DNA from: a virus
Lineage: Duplodnaviria > Heunggongvirae > Uroviricota > Caudoviricetes
Strand: one strand, 5' to 3'
Virus record (IMG/VR): IMGVR_UViG_2703719389_000008
DNA: 9,301 nucleotides
This document shows positions 1 to 5,930 of the stretch, piece by piece. A program made the translations under genes and the position numbers. Within the stretch, counting starts at the first letter, position 1. The number at the start of each line of letters is the position of its first letter. The notes beneath the pieces are model-generated. The model searched no databases. It worked only from the letters and a program-made list of their open reading frames with translations, and was not told the DNA's origin.

Positions 1-537
1 TTACGCATGCTTTTCGGTTCCGGCTCCACCAGTACCCGGGTATTGTGGAATACCAAAAAAAAAAATTGCGCCGGTACCATAACCACCAGCCCGAGTGTCA
101 ATCATCCATGCTGACAGGTTTTGATGAGCAAGTTGCCCGAGTGATTCGGATGTCTGGTCACGCAGCTGGTTGTCGCAGTGCCAGCACAACACCATTGCGC
201 CGGTACCATAACGGTGAATGACGGTTTCGCTGTGATGATAATCGCCGTGTGGCCACTGGCAGGATTTAATATGGCACAACAGCCAGTCAGACAATGCACC
301 AGCACCACCAGCAGCACGAATTACCCGTGCGTTACTGAAAAACGGCAGCAATGTTTTGTCTTCCACCAGCGGCTGGCGAACGGCAGGAACGACCCCGGAC
401 GGCAGATTACGCATGCTTTTCGGTTCCGGCTCCACCAGTACCCGGGTATTGTGGAATACCGGCATGGATTCACGGCCCGGCTTAACGACCACCATCCCGA
501 GTTCCGGTACCAGAACAGGTCGAAGTAATACCCGCAC
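1..537 (-). CDS. Hypothetical prophage protein (178 aa) with a Cys/His cluster resembling an HNH/NinG-like zinc-binding nuclease motif; 3' end is mosaic
   Basis: GTG start at 537 preceded by GGAGGT Shine-Dalgarno 4 nt upstream, immediately after the stop of the upstream 92-aa gene (translational coupling). Motif CHIKSC-x7-DYHH-x15-LCWHCDNQ. Last 54 nt (1..54) duplicate 407..460 in another frame, followed by an A11 run (55..65). TAA stop at 1..3. Confidence 0.45.
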   Translation of the reverse strand: MRVLLRPVLVPELGMVVVKPGRESMPVFHNTRVLVEPEPKSMRNLPSGVVPAVRQPLVEDKTLLPFFSNARVIRAAGGAGALSDWLLCHIKSCQWPHGDYHHSETVIHRYGTGAMVLCWHCDNQLRDQTSESLGQLAHQNLSAWMIDTRAGGYGTGAIFFFGIPQYPGTGGAGTEKHA

Positions 538-538
538 G

Positions 539-817
539 TTACCTCCAGATGCGTTGCTGGAATGTACGGGACGGACGCGGTGGGCGTTCGGAGTTAGGCA
601 ATCTGACTGAGATTATCCAGTGACGGTAGTCGAGACTAAGAGCTTTCTTAACCTCGTATCCGCGCCTGCGGTAACACTGAATTATCCATTCCGCCTGCTC
701 TTCAGTGCATGGAGGGTGCTGGAACCATTCAGACTTGAATGCGTGAGAATACCGCTCGTGCGTGCAGGCAAGAACGGGCGAATTATCAGAATTGTAATAT
801 TTTACGTTGCGTGCCAT
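539..817 (-). CDS. Hypothetical small prophage protein (92 aa), copy A of a duplicated gene
   Basis: ATG at 817 with GGAGA RBS. Paralog of 1601..1879: C-terminal 60 aa nearly identical, N-terminus diverged at protein level but keeping the frame, which supports this strand being coding. Confidence 0.5.
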   Translation of the reverse strand: MARNVKYYNSDNSPVLACTHERYSHAFKSEWFQHPPCTEEQAEWIIQCYRRRGYEVKKALSLDYRHWIISVRLPNSERPPRPSRTFQQRIWR

Positions 818-883
818 CGGTTTTCTCCGGTGGCACGGTGTTACTCAGCGGGAGTTCAGCCCCGCGCAAGATTGTAGATGAGT

Positions 884-1135
884 TTATTCTTCTGCAAAAG
901 CTGAAAAGCCTGCTTTTATTCCAATCTCTTTCAGTGCCTGTAATGAAGTGACAAACTCACCTTCGCGCAAGATAAATCCGTCTGTCACTCGACCATCCAC
1001 AAAATTAATTAACGCAGCCCCATTCTTTCGCAAACACATAATGCGGTAATGACTAACAAGATTTCCATTTTCAACGCACACAGCATAGAGGCCATCTTCA
1101 CAAAAAATTTTACGCAGTTCTTCGATGTTCATCAT
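884..1135 (-). CDS. Hypothetical small prophage protein (83 aa)
   Basis: ATG-ATG start at 1135 with GGAAGGA RBS 5 nt upstream; non-repetitive, balanced composition; lies between the two repeat units. Size and position next to hok recall Rem of Qin but this is not verified. Confidence 0.5.
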   Translation of the reverse strand: MMNIEELRKIFCEDGLYAVCVENGNLVSHYRIMCLRKNGAALINFVDGRVTDGFILREGEFVTSLQALKEIGIKAGFSAFAEE

Positions 1136-1200
1136 CAGAATCCTTCCGGATAATTAGCTCTCCCCTTTAAGGGACCATCCCTCTTATCCCTGCGCGCTAC

Positions 1201-1599
1201 TTAAGTATTTTTGATTCTATTCCGGCACTGGTTGTCGCAGTGCCAGCACAACACCATTGCGCCGGTACCATAACGGTGAATGACGGTTTCGCTGTGATGA
1301 TAATCGCCGTGTGGCCACTGGCAGGATTTAATATGGCGCAACAGCCAGTCAGACAATGCACCAGCACCACCAGCAGCACGAATCACCCGTGCGTTACTGA
1401 AAAACGGCAGCAATGTTTTGTCTTCCACCAGCGGCTGGCGAACGGCAGGAACGACCCCGGACGGCAGATTACGCATGCTTTTCGGTTCCGGCTCCACCAG
1501 TACCCGGGTATTGTGGAATACCGGCATGGATTCACGGCCCGGCTTAACGATCACCAGCCCGAGTTCCGGTACCAGAACAGGTCGAAGTAATACCCGCAC
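1201..1599 (-). CDS. 3'-truncated paralog (132 aa) of the 1..537 HNH/NinG-like gene; probable gene remnant
   Basis: Same GTG start and Shine-Dalgarno context as copy A. Near-identical to copy A through the CWHCDNQ motif, then ends after 7 more codons exactly where the repeat homology stops (about 1228). Confidence 0.4.
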   Translation of the reverse strand: MRVLLRPVLVPELGLVIVKPGRESMPVFHNTRVLVEPEPKSMRNLPSGVVPAVRQPLVEDKTLLPFFSNARVIRAAGGAGALSDWLLRHIKSCQWPHGDYHHSETVIHRYGTGAMVLCWHCDNQCRNRIKNT

Positions 1600-1600
1600 G

Positions 1601-1879
1601 TTACCTCCAGATGCGTTGCTGGAATGTGCGGGACGGACGCGGTGGGCGTTCGGAGTAAGGGAGTCTGACTGAGATTATCCAGTGACGATAGTCGAGACTA
1701 AGAGCTTTCTTAACCTCGTATCCACGCCTGCGGTAACACTGAATTATCCATTCAGCCTGCTCTTCAGTGCATGGAGGATGCTGGAACCAGTCTGATGTGA
1801 ATGCGTGAAAACGCCGTCCGCACCTGCTGGCAAAGACAGCAGAATCATTAGAATTGTGTAATTTGGTATCGTGCGCCAT
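1601..1879 (-). CDS. Hypothetical small prophage protein (92 aa), copy B of the duplicated gene
   Basis: Start chosen at the internal ATG (1879) that aligns with the copy A start (MAHDTKL vs MARNVKY). The longer 1601..2008 ORF in the track would read through a rho-independent terminator. Confidence 0.5.
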   Translation of the reverse strand: MAHDTKLHNSNDSAVFASRCGRRFHAFTSDWFQHPPCTEEQAEWIIQCYRRRGYEVKKALSLDYRHWIISVRLPYSERPPRPSRTFQQRIWR

Positions 1880-1950
1880 CGGTTGTCTCTGCTGGCGCAG
1901 CAGGTGCCAGTTGTTCAGGCTGGCGTGCGAATTGTAAACCAGAATGCCAG

Positions 1951-1978
1951 GAAAAAACAAAACCCGCCGAAGCGGGTT
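1951..1978 (-). terminator. Rho-independent terminator downstream of hok
   Basis: On the minus strand: AACCCGC-TTCG-GCGGGTT (7-bp stem, UUCG tetraloop) followed by TTGTTTTTTCC, about 70 nt after the hok stop. Confidence 0.65.
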
Positions 1979-2046
1979 AAGTGCGGGTGCATTGAGGATG
2001 CCTGACACATCAGAGGTGGCGAGGGATTTCTCCCCCGCCTGGTCTC

Positions 2047-2479: not shown

Positions 2480-5278
2480 TCAGGCACCGTGACATTTTTT
2501 GTACTTTATTCCCGAGCCACAGGGGCATTGTTCATTCCGGCCGACCGCACCAAAAACTTCAGTTAATTTAGTCTTTGCTGCTTTATGGGCAAGCTGTACG
2601 ATGTAATTTGATTGATTTTGGATTTCTTGACGCTGTACACCTGTGAGGCCTTCGATATAGGGAGCAAGGCGCTGCATTTCGACATCAGCTGCTTTATGCT
2701 GACCCGATAGTGCTAATATGACTGCGTATTGGCTTCGAACCTGAATCAGTCGATGTACTAGACCTGCCTCATTGACAACCGGCAGGACATGTTGCTCCAT
2801 GACTTCCTTGGCACCGTCGTAATCCTTTATGGCAACAAACTCATCCGCCAGATCTTGGCCCACCCTGACCATGGATTCCGGGGCCATGGCCAGATTGTAG
2901 AACTTCATCGAATGAATACGCAGTAATGGTGACAGTTTTCCCTGCGCATCACGAATTCTGGCCAGCAACTCCAGAGCATCAGCCATATGTTTAAAGTGTT
3001 CCTGCATATTTTCGGAATGATTAATAGTTTTCCATAATGCGTCGGCGTTTTTTCCTATGACATCAGCAGGTGTGATACCAAATAAAGAATAGTACCCTTG
3101 TATAACATTACAGCTTAATGTTTCAGCATCCTTGAGTTTTTTTAATCTCCAGAGTGCAATGGCATGGTTGTAGTCAAAGATGCGTTTATGTTCTTCATCT
3201 GGGAGTTGGGGGCGGACTTCCTGTGCCAGCTTTTGAACTTCTCGTGCATCATTGCTTTCTGCCGAAAATAACATTCGTTTCATTGCATAGGCCATCTCTT
3301 CTTGATAGCCGAACTTGTGCTCCGCAAGTAAAGCTCCCATGATGTTTAACCTCTGAGCAATGTGGTCGGATATTCCGTCTTTAAGCTCAACGAAAACAAG
3401 GCCATCCAATGCCCAGAATTTATGAACAGGTCCCAATAAGTCCGATGTTGCAGCACGCTCCAAGCTTGCAAGAATGTCGACCGTCACGCCCATCTCATAA
3501 AACATTTCTTGGCCTGAGAGTTCGATCAACGTCGTGACATCATTGAGCTTAATATAAAGTTGAGTCAACAACGATAACCGTTTTGTATTGCGGGTATTAT
3601 GAAGACTTTCAACTAAAAGGTCTTTCAGCGCTAGTAGCGCTTTGTTCGATATACCCTGATCCATCAGTTCCAGATGTTGCAGTCCTAGCCCCCTGACAGC
3701 ATCATGTACCTTCAGGGTCTGGTTTCCATAAATTTCAATAGTGCCAGTAGCGCGCATTTTCCTAATTAAAGAAGCAGCACTGCTTGGTGAAATGTTCAGC
3801 GAATTGATTAGGAGCGTAGAAATCTCTTCGCGACTCAGCCCTACGTCAGAGAGACTGAACAATGCCAGCGCGCTCTGAAGTAGTGATTCAAATCCCTGAA
3901 ATACACGTGACAGAATAATTTCTTGGGCGGTTTCCGCAGTATGGGTTTGTTGCTGGAGTTCAGCACACAGAGCATCGACATTACGCTCATAATCAGAAAC
4001 GGCGATTTTTGCGGCGCTCTCTACATACAGGGGAAGACCACCAGTGTAAGCCCGTAGCTGCTCGTATCCCATAGCGGTGGCAAATCCTCCGATATCGTTT
4101 ACAACGACAGCTACCGTATCGAGATTCCATCCCTGCAGGCCCTCGCGCTGTAGCCCCGTCATGACCTCCAGTTCGCGAACGTTTTCGTGAGGCTGGCACA
4201 ACAGCACAAAACGAATATGTGTAGTTGCATTCAGAACATCCAGTAGATTTTCCGCAGGTACACGATGGGCGTTATCCAGAACCAGCACCAAGGTGGTACC
4301 CTGCTCTTTCAGGTAGGTATCAAAACTCCTAAGAGCCTCAAAACCACTGGCACCGGGGAGCAAAATCCTGCGCAAACCGTCTTGGTCACGGGCTGTAAAT
4401 CTAGCAGCCATCTCGCGCACCAGCGTACTGGCCAGAGCTGGACCGGGAAGATCACCGGTGTCGTAATAAGCACAAAGTGCAGTGGAGTGTAATGCGGCCT
4501 GTGCGGCCCAAGCTGTCTTGCCTGCACCTGAGAGTCCACAAAGGATACGGATCCGCTCACCAGATGTGAGAGAAGGTTCTTCGTTCTGTGGGCGGTACAG
4601 TGCTGGTGGTGCAGGAAAGTCCTGTAGCTGAACGATCAACTGTTCAAATAGTTCAGTAAGTTCTTCCGTGAAAAACGTATGTTGTCCATTGGTATCGCCT
4701 CCGGTGGCGGCAAGCTGAACCAATCCTGCTAACTTCCAAATCAAGGATTCTGGGGACAATAGTGAAAATTTCAGCTTTTCTGCTTCTGCGATACACCATG
4801 TGGCCGCATCAGCCAGAGTACTCCATGCGGGCGGAAGTGCCGGGTGACGTCCAGCTGTCGACTGGGGCCAGACAATAAGAACATCAGAAGGAAGCTTTTT
4901 ATCGTCAATCATCTTCTGAAGCAGCGGTCCAGGCGCCTGGTTTACAATAATCACAAAAGAAGCCACCCCTTCGCGGTTTGCCGAAGTATGCTCATTTCTG
5001 AGCTTTACAAATCGCTCCAGAGCCCCCGACACATCGTTGGGCATAATAGGTTTTGAACGGGTTTTAACCTGAATGTAGAGACGTTCCTGTTTGGATTTCA
5101 GCTCAATATCCTCATCAAGCTCGACAGTTACTGAGTCCATAGCTGCCCTCTGCGCCAAAAGTAAGCAGCCTACAGCGTAAAGATGCTGGTAAAGGAACCC
5201 CCGGTGTACCGCTTCGATACGCACCAACTGCACAGGATCCAGTACGTCCAGATTTTGTTTGTTTTCACTTCCCCACAT
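2480..5278 (-). CDS. Large multidomain protein (932 aa): PD-(D/E)xK-like nuclease motif, STAND (NB-ARC-like) P-loop NTPase, TPR-like helical repeats, C-terminal SEC-C zinc ribbon; candidate NLR-like antiviral sensor
   Basis: Uninterrupted 2.8-kb ORF with AAGGAA RBS 6 nt upstream of ATG 5278. Walker A GLSGAGKT (nt 4514..4537, verified by translation), Walker B LVLVLDN (4271..4291, verified), GGLPL (about 4028..4042), VHD (aa 524-526), N-terminal D57...Q70-V-K72 (about 5063..5122), C-terminal CPCGSGIKYKKCH (2489..2527). Confidence 0.85.
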   Translation of the reverse strand: MWGSENKQNLDVLDPVQLVRIEAVHRGFLYQHLYAVGCLLLAQRAAMDSVTVELDEDIELKSKQERLYIQVKTRSKPIMPNDVSGALERFVKLRNEHTSANREGVASFVIIVNQAPGPLLQKMIDDKKLPSDVLIVWPQSTAGRHPALPPAWSTLADAATWCIAEAEKLKFSLLSPESLIWKLAGLVQLAATGGDTNGQHTFFTEELTELFEQLIVQLQDFPAPPALYRPQNEEPSLTSGERIRILCGLSGAGKTAWAAQAALHSTALCAYYDTGDLPGPALASTLVREMAARFTARDQDGLRRILLPGASGFEALRSFDTYLKEQGTTLVLVLDNAHRVPAENLLDVLNATTHIRFVLLCQPHENVRELEVMTGLQREGLQGWNLDTVAVVVNDIGGFATAMGYEQLRAYTGGLPLYVESAAKIAVSDYERNVDALCAELQQQTHTAETAQEIILSRVFQGFESLLQSALALFSLSDVGLSREEISTLLINSLNISPSSAASLIRKMRATGTIEIYGNQTLKVHDAVRGLGLQHLELMDQGISNKALLALKDLLVESLHNTRNTKRLSLLTQLYIKLNDVTTLIELSGQEMFYEMGVTVDILASLERAATSDLLGPVHKFWALDGLVFVELKDGISDHIAQRLNIMGALLAEHKFGYQEEMAYAMKRMLFSAESNDAREVQKLAQEVRPQLPDEEHKRIFDYNHAIALWRLKKLKDAETLSCNVIQGYYSLFGITPADVIGKNADALWKTINHSENMQEHFKHMADALELLARIRDAQGKLSPLLRIHSMKFYNLAMAPESMVRVGQDLADEFVAIKDYDGAKEVMEQHVLPVVNEAGLVHRLIQVRSQYAVILALSGQHKAADVEMQRLAPYIEGLTGVQRQEIQNQSNYIVQLAHKAAKTKLTEVFGAVGRNEQCPCGSGIKYKKCHGA

Positions 5279-5521: not shown

Positions 5522-5773
5522 TTAATACCGAACATTTCCCTGATAAAATTCCAGTATGCGCTGCATAACTTCGCTCTGACGACACTCGCGACAAATTATA
5601 TTCTGTCGTCTGTTGTAACGGCGTATTTCGCCATCTAGCAATGAATAAATCAGGTCAGGGTCGCTCTTCTTTTTCACTGCCGCTCTCGACATTTTTTTTG
5701 CGGGCTTTTCCCCAGTCCTTACGAGCCTGCTCCGAAGGAAATATTCCATGTCCTGAACCATATACTGCGCCAC
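5522..5773 (-). CDS. Ren-like C-terminal segment; probably the downstream half of a frameshifted 135-aa gene
   Basis: C-terminus ...NIICRECRQSEVMQRILEFYQGNVRY resembles the lambda Ren C-terminus (KECRQSAAMKRVLAVYG, from memory). Overlaps 5655..5930 in the +1 frame across an A8 run. Confidence 0.45.
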   Translation of the reverse strand: MAQYMVQDMEYFLRSRLVRTGEKPAKKMSRAAVKKKSDPDLIYSLLDGEIRRYNRRQNIICRECRQSEVMQRILEFYQGNVRY

Positions 5774-5930
5774 TAACTACCAGCTCTTTCACCAGAACTT
5801 CTATCAGGTGTCTCGTCGCCCCGGTTTCATTTTCCAGTTGTTTACGCGTTTTTCGCCCATCTCTGCGTACCAGTTCCACAATGCGCGCCTTCACTTCTTC
5901 CCGCAGTTCGGGAGTAAAAACTTTTGCCAC
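5655..5930 (-). CDS. Small HTH-like protein; probably the upstream half of the frameshifted Ren-like gene
   Basis: 91-aa ORF. Frame changes relative to 5522..5773 at the A8 homopolymer (5692..5699); an A7 tract would give one continuous 135-aa ORF. Confidence 0.45.
   Translation of the reverse strand: MAKVFTPELREEVKARIVELVRRDGRKTRKQLENETGATRHLIEVLVKELVVSGAVYGSGHGIFPSEQARKDWGKARKKNVESGSEKEERP

What the first reader, a model, noticed from the sequence alone, without database searches (positions are those of the whole stretch)
5063..5122. Putative nuclease active site in the N-terminal effector domain
Aa 53-72 read ELDEDIELKSKQERLYIQVK: acidic residues, then about 12 residues, then hydrophobic-Q-x-K. 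This matches the D...(E/Q)xK core of restriction-endonuclease-fold nucleases (Mrr/Cap4-like). If it is the effector, activation would degrade DNA as in nuclease-type Avs proteins. The call rests on a short motif only.
Basis: inference. Interest (0 to 1): 0.5.

Follow-up and report, generated by a model that had tools for sequence, protein, structure and literature searches.

The report
Cap4 nuclease site, prophage STAND protein
The flagged 20 residues are the catalytic core (D57 ... Q70-x-K72) of a Cap4-type DNA-cutting domain at the head of a 932-residue NLR-like (STAND) immune protein carried by an E. coli prophage; the design is well known from Avs3 and Avs7, but I found no report that this particular family has been tested.

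The parts
2480..5278 (-). Whole gene: 932-aa Cap4 nuclease - STAND NTPase - helical-repeat sensor - SEC-C protein (identical to WP_000264572.1, annotated 'SEC-C metal-binding domain-containing protein')
   Evidence: ORF list; 100% match in E. coli chromosomes; Pfam domains; full-length model with pLDDT 80.9
4619..5236 (-). Cap4-type PD-(D/E)xK nuclease domain (aa 15-220), the predicted effector
5183..5206 (-).
   Evidence: G27, Q31 and H32 are invariant in 97/97; aligns with HGFLFQ of HamA and GFNYQ of LmuA
5063..5122 (-). The flagged segment, aa 53-72: end of strand 1 (E53), strand 2 (D57, E59), a variable loop, and strand 3 (Q70-V-K72); the catalytic core
   Evidence: aligned to HamA E41/D45/D47/Q58/K60, with mutagenesis in PMC11914072
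5108..5110 (-). D57, predicted metal-binding aspartate (equivalent to HamA D45)
   Evidence: 97/97 invariant; first residue of strand 2; alignment
5063..5071 (-). Q70-V71-K72, the (D/E/Q)xK element (equivalent to HamA Q58-V-K60 and LmuA Q57-V-K59)
   Evidence: Q70 and K72 are 97/97 invariant; end of strand 3; alignments
4079..4558 (-). P-loop nucleotide-binding domain of the STAND NTPase (aa 241-400), with Walker A GLSGAGKT (aa 248-255, nt 4514-4537) and Walker B LVLVLD (D335, within nt 4265-4291)
   Evidence: Pfam AAA_22 on aa 239-364; G248/G251/G253/K254/T255/D335 invariant; Foldseek 6mfv STAND, E 4.6e-13
3659..4078 (-). Helical and winged-helix domains (aa 401-540), with a GLPL-like motif GGLPLY (aa 413-418) and an MHD-like V-H525-D526
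   Evidence: Secondary structure of the model; motif residues invariant or nearly so; matches to plant NLRs and MalT; the motif names are my reading by eye
2555..3658 (-). Alpha-solenoid (TPR-like) region (aa 541-908), the presumed sensor
   Evidence: All-helical repeats, blocks mostly pLDDT 80-96; best match over the whole chain is a STAND protein with a TPR sensor
2483..2554 (-). C-terminal tail with the SEC-C zinc motif CPCGSGIKYKKCH (aa 918-930)
   Evidence: PF02810, 38.8 bits against a cutoff of 20.4; matches SecA C-terminal peptides in the PDB; present in 32 of 33 full-length homologues

Best explanation
Aa 53-72 form the catalytic heart of a Cap4-type (DUF4297, PF14130) PD-(D/E)xK nuclease domain. 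D57 at the start of strand 2 and Q70-x-K72 on strand 3, probably helped by E53 and E59, would bind a divalent metal and cleave DNA. The domain is the N-terminal effector of a single-polypeptide STAND (NLR-like) protein made of a Cap4 nuclease, a P-loop NTPase with helical and winged-helix domains, a helical-repeat sensor of about 370 aa and a SEC-C zinc tail. It is carried as a moron in a lambdoid E. coli prophage. The proposed mechanism follows SeAvs3 and SeAvs7. In the resting state the nuclease is held inactive. Binding of an infection cue to the sensor allows ATP-dependent oligomerisation. That brings Cap4 domains together into an active nuclease, which degrades double-stranded DNA indiscriminately and stops phage replication at the cost of the cell. 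What is shown here: the sequence, the fold, residue-level equivalence to experimentally validated catalytic residues, strict conservation, the STAND architecture and the mobile/defence context. What is inferred: catalysis itself, DNA as the substrate, activation by oligomerisation, the trigger and anti-phage function.
Against: No experiment exists for this protein or family in the literature I could search. The Pfam score clears its cutoff by less than 1 bit, and sequence-only matches to solved Cap4 nucleases are weak (E 0.27-0.45), so the assignment rests mainly on a predicted structure. No PADLOC Avs model matches, and no solved Avs is detectable by sequence. The full-length model does not rank SeAvs3 or EcAvs4 among its top matches for the NTPase-sensor part. 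I could not obtain model coordinates to confirm that the candidate residues cluster in space. The effector-swap evidence is a single cluster with a sub-threshold TIR hit.
Confidence: 0.8

Rival explanations
1. The N-domain has the Cap4 fold but is not the killing activity. It would serve as a DNA-binding or oligomerisation module, and the output would come from something else, such as ATPase-driven sequestration or the SEC-C tail.
For: Catalytically dead PD-(D/E)xK domains are used as scaffolds in defence proteins, for example the DUF1837 domain of type I-B HamA. Cap4 domains do mediate tetramerisation in SeAvs7.
Against: Every residue of the validated catalytic triad is invariant in 97/97 divergent representatives, along with the flanking acidic residues, while the neighbouring loop varies freely. 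Dead domains typically lose these residues. No other enzymatic domain is detected in the protein.
Confidence: 0.07
2. The protein is not an immune sensor. It would be a prophage housekeeping or competition factor, such as a regulated nuclease acting in replication, recombination or host takeover, that happens to have STAND architecture.
For: It lies directly downstream of the prophage replication module and a Ren-like gene. No known Avs HMM matches. STAND clades switch between defence and non-defence roles.
Against: Relatives sit outside prophages: among defence genes in Vibrio, and next to AbiH on a metal-resistance mobile element in Pseudomonas, with no conserved phage neighbours. Relatives also occur on many plasmids. 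The gene is rare and patchy (16 of 5426 E. coli genomes), and decayed copies exist (IS insertions, an internal deletion), as is typical for defence cargo. The ren-nin position is a usual site for morons.
Confidence: 0.1
3. The motif belongs to an Mrr-type or a generic type II restriction-endonuclease domain rather than a Cap4-type domain.
Confidence: 0.03

Closest known systems
SeAvs3 (Salmonella Avs3; PDB 8dgc)
   Different: SeAvs3 is about 2000 aa with a very large terminase-binding sensor, whereas this protein is 932 aa with a sensor of about 370 aa. There is no detectable sequence similarity outside the nuclease fold, no PADLOC Avs hit, and the tail carries a SEC-C motif. The trigger is unknown.
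SeAvs7 (Cap4-STAND-TPR, senses major capsid protein with EF-Tu; PMC13581612)
   Same: The same three-part layout with a Cap4 effector of about 225 aa. Inactivating Cap4 abolishes toxicity and defence, and the Cap4 domains tetramerise on activation.
   Different: The spacing of NTPase motifs differs: SeAvs7 has K292/D358/R395, this protein has K254/D335. The SeAvs7 structure was not in the PDB copy I searched, so no direct comparison was possible. I found no evidence for a shared sensor.
HamA Cap4 domain of type I-B Hachiman (E. coli K-12 AbpA; PDB 8zue)
   Different: HamA is controlled by a partner helicase (HamB) and carries a DUF1837 domain. Here control would come from a fused STAND NTPase.
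LmuA (Lamassu) and CBASS Cap4 nucleases (PDB 9ux8, 9nxx, 6vm6, 7yib)
   Same: The same Cap4 nuclease fold and E..D.E...QVK motif. They are activated by oligomerisation.
   Different: They are activated by an SMC-like complex (Lamassu) or by cyclic oligonucleotides through a SAVED domain (CBASS), not by a fused STAND sensor.
PH0952-type archaeal STAND ATPase with TPR sensor (PDB 6mfv)
   Same: The best structural match for the NTPase-helical-winged-helix-repeat body (Foldseek E 4.6e-13, TM 0.53 normalised to the target).
   Different: The match spans the NTPase-sensor body, and 6mfv (641 residues) is too short to carry an additional nuclease domain like this one. It is not known as an immune protein.

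Membership tests
Cap4-type nuclease domain (Pfam PF14130, formerly DUF4297) | Scores above the curated Pfam gathering threshold | tested here: met
   27.1 bits against a cutoff of 26.2, aa 25-77, profile positions 7-63 of 200. The margin is small and only the N-terminal third of the profile aligns. Many homologues carry the precomputed PF14130 label.
Cap4-type nuclease domain (Pfam PF14130, formerly DUF4297) | The three-dimensional fold matches solved Cap4-type nucleases better than other PD-(D/E)xK enzymes | tested here: met
Cap4-type nuclease domain (Pfam PF14130, formerly DUF4297) | The catalytic D ... Q-x-K residues are present at the positions validated by mutagenesis in family members | tested here: met
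   D57/Q70/K72 align without gaps to HamA D45/Q58/K60 (mutants) and to LmuA D44/Q57/K59. They are invariant in 97/97 representatives.
Cap4-type nuclease domain (Pfam PF14130, formerly DUF4297) | Metal-dependent DNA endonuclease activity | not testable with these tools
   Requires purified protein and mutants.
PD-(D/E)xK (restriction-endonuclease-like) superfamily | An alpha-beta-beta-beta-alpha-beta core, with the aspartate at the start of strand 2 and the (D/E/Q)xK element on strand 3 | tested here: met
Mrr-type nuclease (as in EcAvs4) | Sequence or structural match to the Mrr catalytic domain | tested here: not met
STAND NTPase / antiviral STAND (Avs-like) | A P-loop NTPase with conserved Walker A and B followed by helical and winged-helix domains (the STAND module) | tested here: met
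   GLSGAGKT and LVLVLD are invariant. The model shows the NBD, HD and WHD in order. Foldseek matches 6mfv STAND at E 4.6e-13, then plant NLRs NRC2, Roq1 and RPP1, then MalT. No Pfam NB-ARC or NACHT hit; only the generic AAA_22 and AAA_16.
STAND NTPase / antiviral STAND (Avs-like) | A C-terminal repeat sensor and an N-terminal effector domain in a single polypeptide | tested here: met
   Alpha-solenoid at aa 541-908; Cap4 effector at aa 15-220.
STAND NTPase / antiviral STAND (Avs-like) | Membership of a named Avs family (Avs1-5 HMMs; Avs7-24 of Lee et al. 2026) | tested here: inconclusive
   No PADLOC v2 Avs/AVAST model matches at E <= 1, so it does not match PADLOC v2's Avs (AVAST) models. The supplementary tables that list Avs7-24 and the 589 clades are not held, so identity with a later-named family cannot be excluded.
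STAND NTPase / antiviral STAND (Avs-like) | Association with defence islands or mobile elements | tested here: met
   Beside a Gabija-like gene pair, AbiH and a PIN gene in V. cholerae. AbiH is adjacent in Pseudomonas. A prophage moron in E. coli. Found on 54 plasmids. Only a few loci were inspected, with no statistics.
STAND NTPase / antiviral STAND (Avs-like) | Trigger-dependent oligomerisation and anti-phage protection | not testable with these tools
   Needs phage challenge and co-expression screens.
SEC-C zinc-binding motif (PF02810) | A CxC...C(H/C) motif scoring above the Pfam cutoff | tested here: met
   38.8 bits against a cutoff of 20.4, aa 914-931. It matches SecA C-terminal peptides 1sx0 and 1ozb and is conserved in 32 of 33 homologues.

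The most novel reading that the evidence does not exclude
This is a compact, previously unnamed antiviral STAND family. It is almost fixed at 932 aa, and its sensor is just under the 400-aa limit used in the 2026 survey of Avs sensors. Its conserved C-terminal SEC-C zinc tail, the motif SecA uses to dock on SecB and the ribosome, would recruit a host factor or nucleic acid as part of sensing. That would be comparable to the use of EF-Tu by SeAvs7 and would give a new trigger logic for a Cap4-armed NLR-like protein.
Probability: 0.12. Interest if true: 0.6.

Novelty: new member of a known kind. Interest (0 to 1): 0.3.

Why it matters
The result turns a guess based on a motif into a residue-level, testable assignment. 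D57, Q70 and K72 are the residues to mutate, and K254 is the NTPase control. It also identifies a widespread, mobile Cap4-STAND family with no experiment I could find: 539 cluster representatives, present on prophages, plasmids and defence islands across Proteobacteria and beyond. An E. coli prophage copy is available and easy to clone. The biology is expected rather than surprising, because Cap4 nucleases fused to STAND sensors are established in Avs3 and Avs7. The open questions worth work are the trigger and the function of the SEC-C tail.

Tried and rejected
- Megablast of the gene against 50,697 phage records found nothing. tblastn later found only two distant metagenomic phage contigs.
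- Sequence searches of the PDB with the single protein and with the full-length profile found only SEC-C peptides and no STAND or Avs. The N-domain profile gave only weak hits, E 0.27-0.45, so fold comparison was needed.
- PADLOC gave no Avs hit. NCBIfam and PHROGs matched little beyond the SEC-C tail; NCBIfam's one other hit was a weak, far sub-threshold DUF4297_antiphage match on aa 26-73.
- I tried to establish whether the family is one of Avs7-24. The supplementary tables of Lee et al. 2026 and its preprint are not held, the main text gives no accessions or sizes, and Brenes & Laub 2025 is not held. Literature searches for the accession and for SEC-C together with Avs found nothing.
- The original Cap4 paper (Lowey 2020) is not in the library, so I used the HamA and LmuA papers for the validated residues.
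- Two paper look-ups and two paper searches failed on term syntax.
- The promoter and terminator scan around the gene gave nothing above shuffled background, and composition shows no sharp foreign signature.
- Model coordinates are not exposed to scripts, so I could not measure distances between the candidate catalytic residues.
- Effector swapping was looked for. Members with short N-termini turned out to be truncated copies of the same domain. Only one TIR-like exception was found.
- The Mrr-type assignment was rejected.

Full report
**1. The observation**

The window holds one long ORF on the minus strand, 5278..2480, encoding 932 aa.

Taken alone, the pattern is weak.

The extended pattern does better. 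E-x3-D-x-E ... Q-x-K appears in 0.5% of shuffles. Preceded by the GF.YQ helix motif at aa 27-31, it appears in 0 of 2000.

**2. What the segment is**

Four independent lines agree.

(a) Profile match. Pfam Cap4_nuclease (PF14130, formerly DUF4297) matches aa 25-77 at 27.1 bits, against a curated cutoff of 26.2. PADLOC's LmuA, DUF4297 and HamA models hit the same stretch. PGAP names a fragment of this same gene, split by an IS element, 'dsDNA nuclease domain-containing protein'.

(b) Fold.
- An AlphaFold2 model of aa 1-235, built on 59 homologues, is confident (pLDDT 87.8, pTM 0.82).
- Its topology is H15-42, E49-52, E57-61, E65-72, H80-98, E105-112. This is the alpha-beta-beta-beta-alpha-beta core of restriction-endonuclease-like nucleases.
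- D57 is the first residue of strand 2, and Q70/K72 are at the end of strand 3.
- Foldseek against the PDB returns HamA (8zue, E 2.5e-6), LmuA, AbCap4, SeAvs3 (8dgc, TM 0.57), MspJI and HerA-DUF4297.
- The domain is therefore Cap4-type, not Mrr-type.

(c) Residue equivalence.
- A profile of the family aligns to native E. coli K-12 HamA (AbpA) without any gap across the motif (hhalign E 2.5e-5).
- The pairs are E53/D57/E59/Q70/K72 with HamA E41/D45/D47/Q58/K60.
- The HamA paper names D45, Q58 and K60 as the Cap4 active-site residues shared with CBASS Cap4. It shows that D45A or K60A removes DNase activity and that alanine substitutions abolish defence (PMC11914072).
- LmuA shows the same E..D.E...QVK arrangement, and its lysine mutant (K57A in V. 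cholerae) is the standard catalytic-dead control.

(d) Conservation.
- In 33 full-length homologues (49-81% identical), E53, D55, D57, E59, Y68, Q70, K72 and R74 are invariant. The intervening loop (aa 61-65) is 21-48% conserved.
- An exhaustive search with the NTPase-sensor part (aa 236-932) found 539 cluster representatives.
- Of the 96 full-length ones, 95 carry a homologous N-domain.
- In 97 complete N-domains (38-74% identical to this one), D57, Q70, K72, G27, Q31 and H32 are each 97/97. E53 is E in 95 and D in 2. E59 is E in 95 and Q in 2.

**3. The protein around it**

The full-length model (pLDDT 80.9) shows the following order:
- The Cap4 domain.
- A P-loop domain with Walker A GLSGAGKT (aa 248-255) and Walker B LVLVLD (D335), both invariant.
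- A helical domain containing GGLPLY (aa 413-418).
- A winged-helix domain containing an invariant H525-D526.
- An alpha-solenoid (aa 541-908).
- A low-confidence tail with a SEC-C zinc motif, CPCGSGIKYKKCH.

Reading GGLPLY and VHD as the GLPL and MHD motifs of NB-ARC-type STAND ATPases is my own inference by eye.

The best structural match for the whole chain is an archaeal STAND ATPase with a TPR sensor (6mfv, E 4.6e-13). Plant NLR resistosomes and MalT follow. By sequence, no solved STAND or Avs is detectable, and no PADLOC Avs model matches.

**4. Context**

- The gene is identical to WP_000264572.1, annotated 'SEC-C metal-binding domain-containing protein'. It occurs in only 16 of 5426 complete E. 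coli genomes, always on the chromosome.
- It sits in a lambdoid prophage integrated next to a tRNA-Ser gene beside mtfA. On one side are the replication initiator and a Ren-like/DUF977 gene. On the other are hokD, DUF968, rusA and Q. This is a typical moron position.
- In V. cholerae, a 61%-identical relative lies beside a Gabija-like pair (an OLD-TOPRIM ATPase and a UvrD helicase), AbiH and a PIN gene.
- In Pseudomonas, it lies on a metal-resistance mobile region, with AbiH 60 bp downstream.
- Relatives are on 54 plasmids from Klebsiella, Rhizobium, Pseudomonas, Agrobacterium and Streptomyces, and on two metagenomic phage contigs.
- No partner gene is conserved across these settings, so it looks like a single-gene system.
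- One relative (P0357) has a TIR-like N-terminus on the same body (PF13676, 23 bits, below the cutoff). That is a probable effector swap.

**5. Most likely mechanism**

The model follows SeAvs3 and SeAvs7, which are Cap4-STAND-TPR proteins. In SeAvs7 the apo sensor and NTPase sequester Cap4. Target binding and ATP drive tetramerisation, which assembles the active nuclease, and inactivating Cap4 abolishes both toxicity and defence (PMC13581612).

I propose the same sequence here: an autoinhibited monomer, sensing by the solenoid, ATP-dependent oligomerisation, juxtaposed Cap4 domains, then metal-dependent and sequence-independent cleavage of double-stranded DNA that aborts the infection.

The identity and integrity of the active site, the STAND architecture and the mobile/defence context are shown here. 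Catalysis, the substrate, the oligomeric state, the trigger and protection are inferred. My confidence is about 0.9 that the segment is a Cap4-type active site and about 0.7 for the full Avs-like mechanism, giving 0.8 overall.

**6. Rivals**

- A scaffold-only, non-catalytic domain (0.07) is unlikely given the invariant triad.
- A non-immune prophage function (0.10) fits poorly with the non-phage contexts, the patchy distribution and the decayed copies.

**7. Comparison with what is known, and novelty**

In function and architecture this is a Cap4-armed antiviral STAND. It differs from SeAvs3 and SeAvs7 in three ways: its small size (932 aa, with a post-winged-helix region of about 390 aa), the lack of sequence similarity outside the nuclease fold, and the conserved SEC-C tail.

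The 2026 survey of Avs sensors considered only sensors of 400 aa or more. Its main text does not mention SEC-C or zinc. Its supplementary tables are not available to me, so I cannot say whether this clade already has a name.

The domain labels themselves are already public: PF14130 is precomputed on relatives, and PGAP uses the name 'dsDNA nuclease domain-containing protein'. I rate this a new member of a known kind, with interest 0.3. The finding is correct and useful for experiments, but a specialist would expect it.

The most novel reading still open is that the SEC-C tail mediates host-factor-assisted sensing (probability about 0.12).

Noticed in passing
window 1-2010 (repeats 1-54 = 407-460 = 1469-1522; 166-465 ~ 1228-1527): There is a tandem duplication with a 1062-bp period. 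It covers the 5' part of a DUF968/HNH-like gene (ORFs 1..537 and 1201..1599, minus strand) and the small gene upstream of it (539..817 versus 1601..2008). The first 54 bases of the window recur exactly twice. The best-matching E. coli record (H1) is annotated with a single intact DUF968 gene at this position.
   Followed up: partly
window 2483-2554 (aa 909-932): The SEC-C zinc motif (CPCGSG.K.KKCH) at the extreme C-terminus is conserved in 32 of 33 full-length homologues, and the TIR-like variant keeps it. Variants of about 900 aa lack it (P0165-7, P0204, P0233-5, P0240). The same motif occurs in the lactococcal single-gene defence system Rugutis and produces hits to the PADLOC E2 and PDC-S12 models. 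Its role in a defence protein is unexplained.
   Followed up: partly
L007 1501-5552 (NZ_OZ546984.1); proteins P0105, P0107-P0111: Decayed copies of the gene exist. One E. coli copy is split by an ISEc52 element after about aa 200. Several metagenomic ORFs fuse Cap4 aa 1-90 to an IS3 integrase. A 144-aa Klebsiella protein seen on 234 contigs is an in-frame deletion that joins aa 1-88 to the last ~55 aa, including SEC-C.
   Followed up: partly
L003 10860-11762, L004 8882-9784, L005 7307-8014; L002 2465-3424: In three Pseudomonas loci an AbiH-family gene lies 60 bp downstream of the homologue. In V. cholerae one lies 4.5 kb upstream. The E. coli prophage has none. This could be a recurrent neighbour or an independent defence gene.
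   Followed up: no
protein P0357 (893 aa): This is the only family representative without the Cap4 domain. Its N-terminal ~100 aa resemble a TIR domain (PF13676, 23 bits, below the cutoff of 28), on the same NTPase-sensor-SEC-C body. It is a probable effector swap.
   Followed up: partly
window 4025-4042 and 3692-3712 (aa 413-418, 523-529): GGLPLY and K-V-H-D-A-V-R resemble the GLPL and MHD motifs of NB-ARC-type STAND ATPases, and both are conserved across the family. Pfam's NB-ARC model does not match, however.
   Followed up: no
window 5522-5930 and 2047-2259: The flanking morons are a Ren-like exclusion protein (5655..5930, minus strand; annotated DUF977, and frameshifted in H1) upstream and a HokD/MokW-type toxin downstream. 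The Cap4-STAND gene therefore sits in a small cluster of accessory and exclusion genes between the replication and nin/Q modules.
   Followed up: partly
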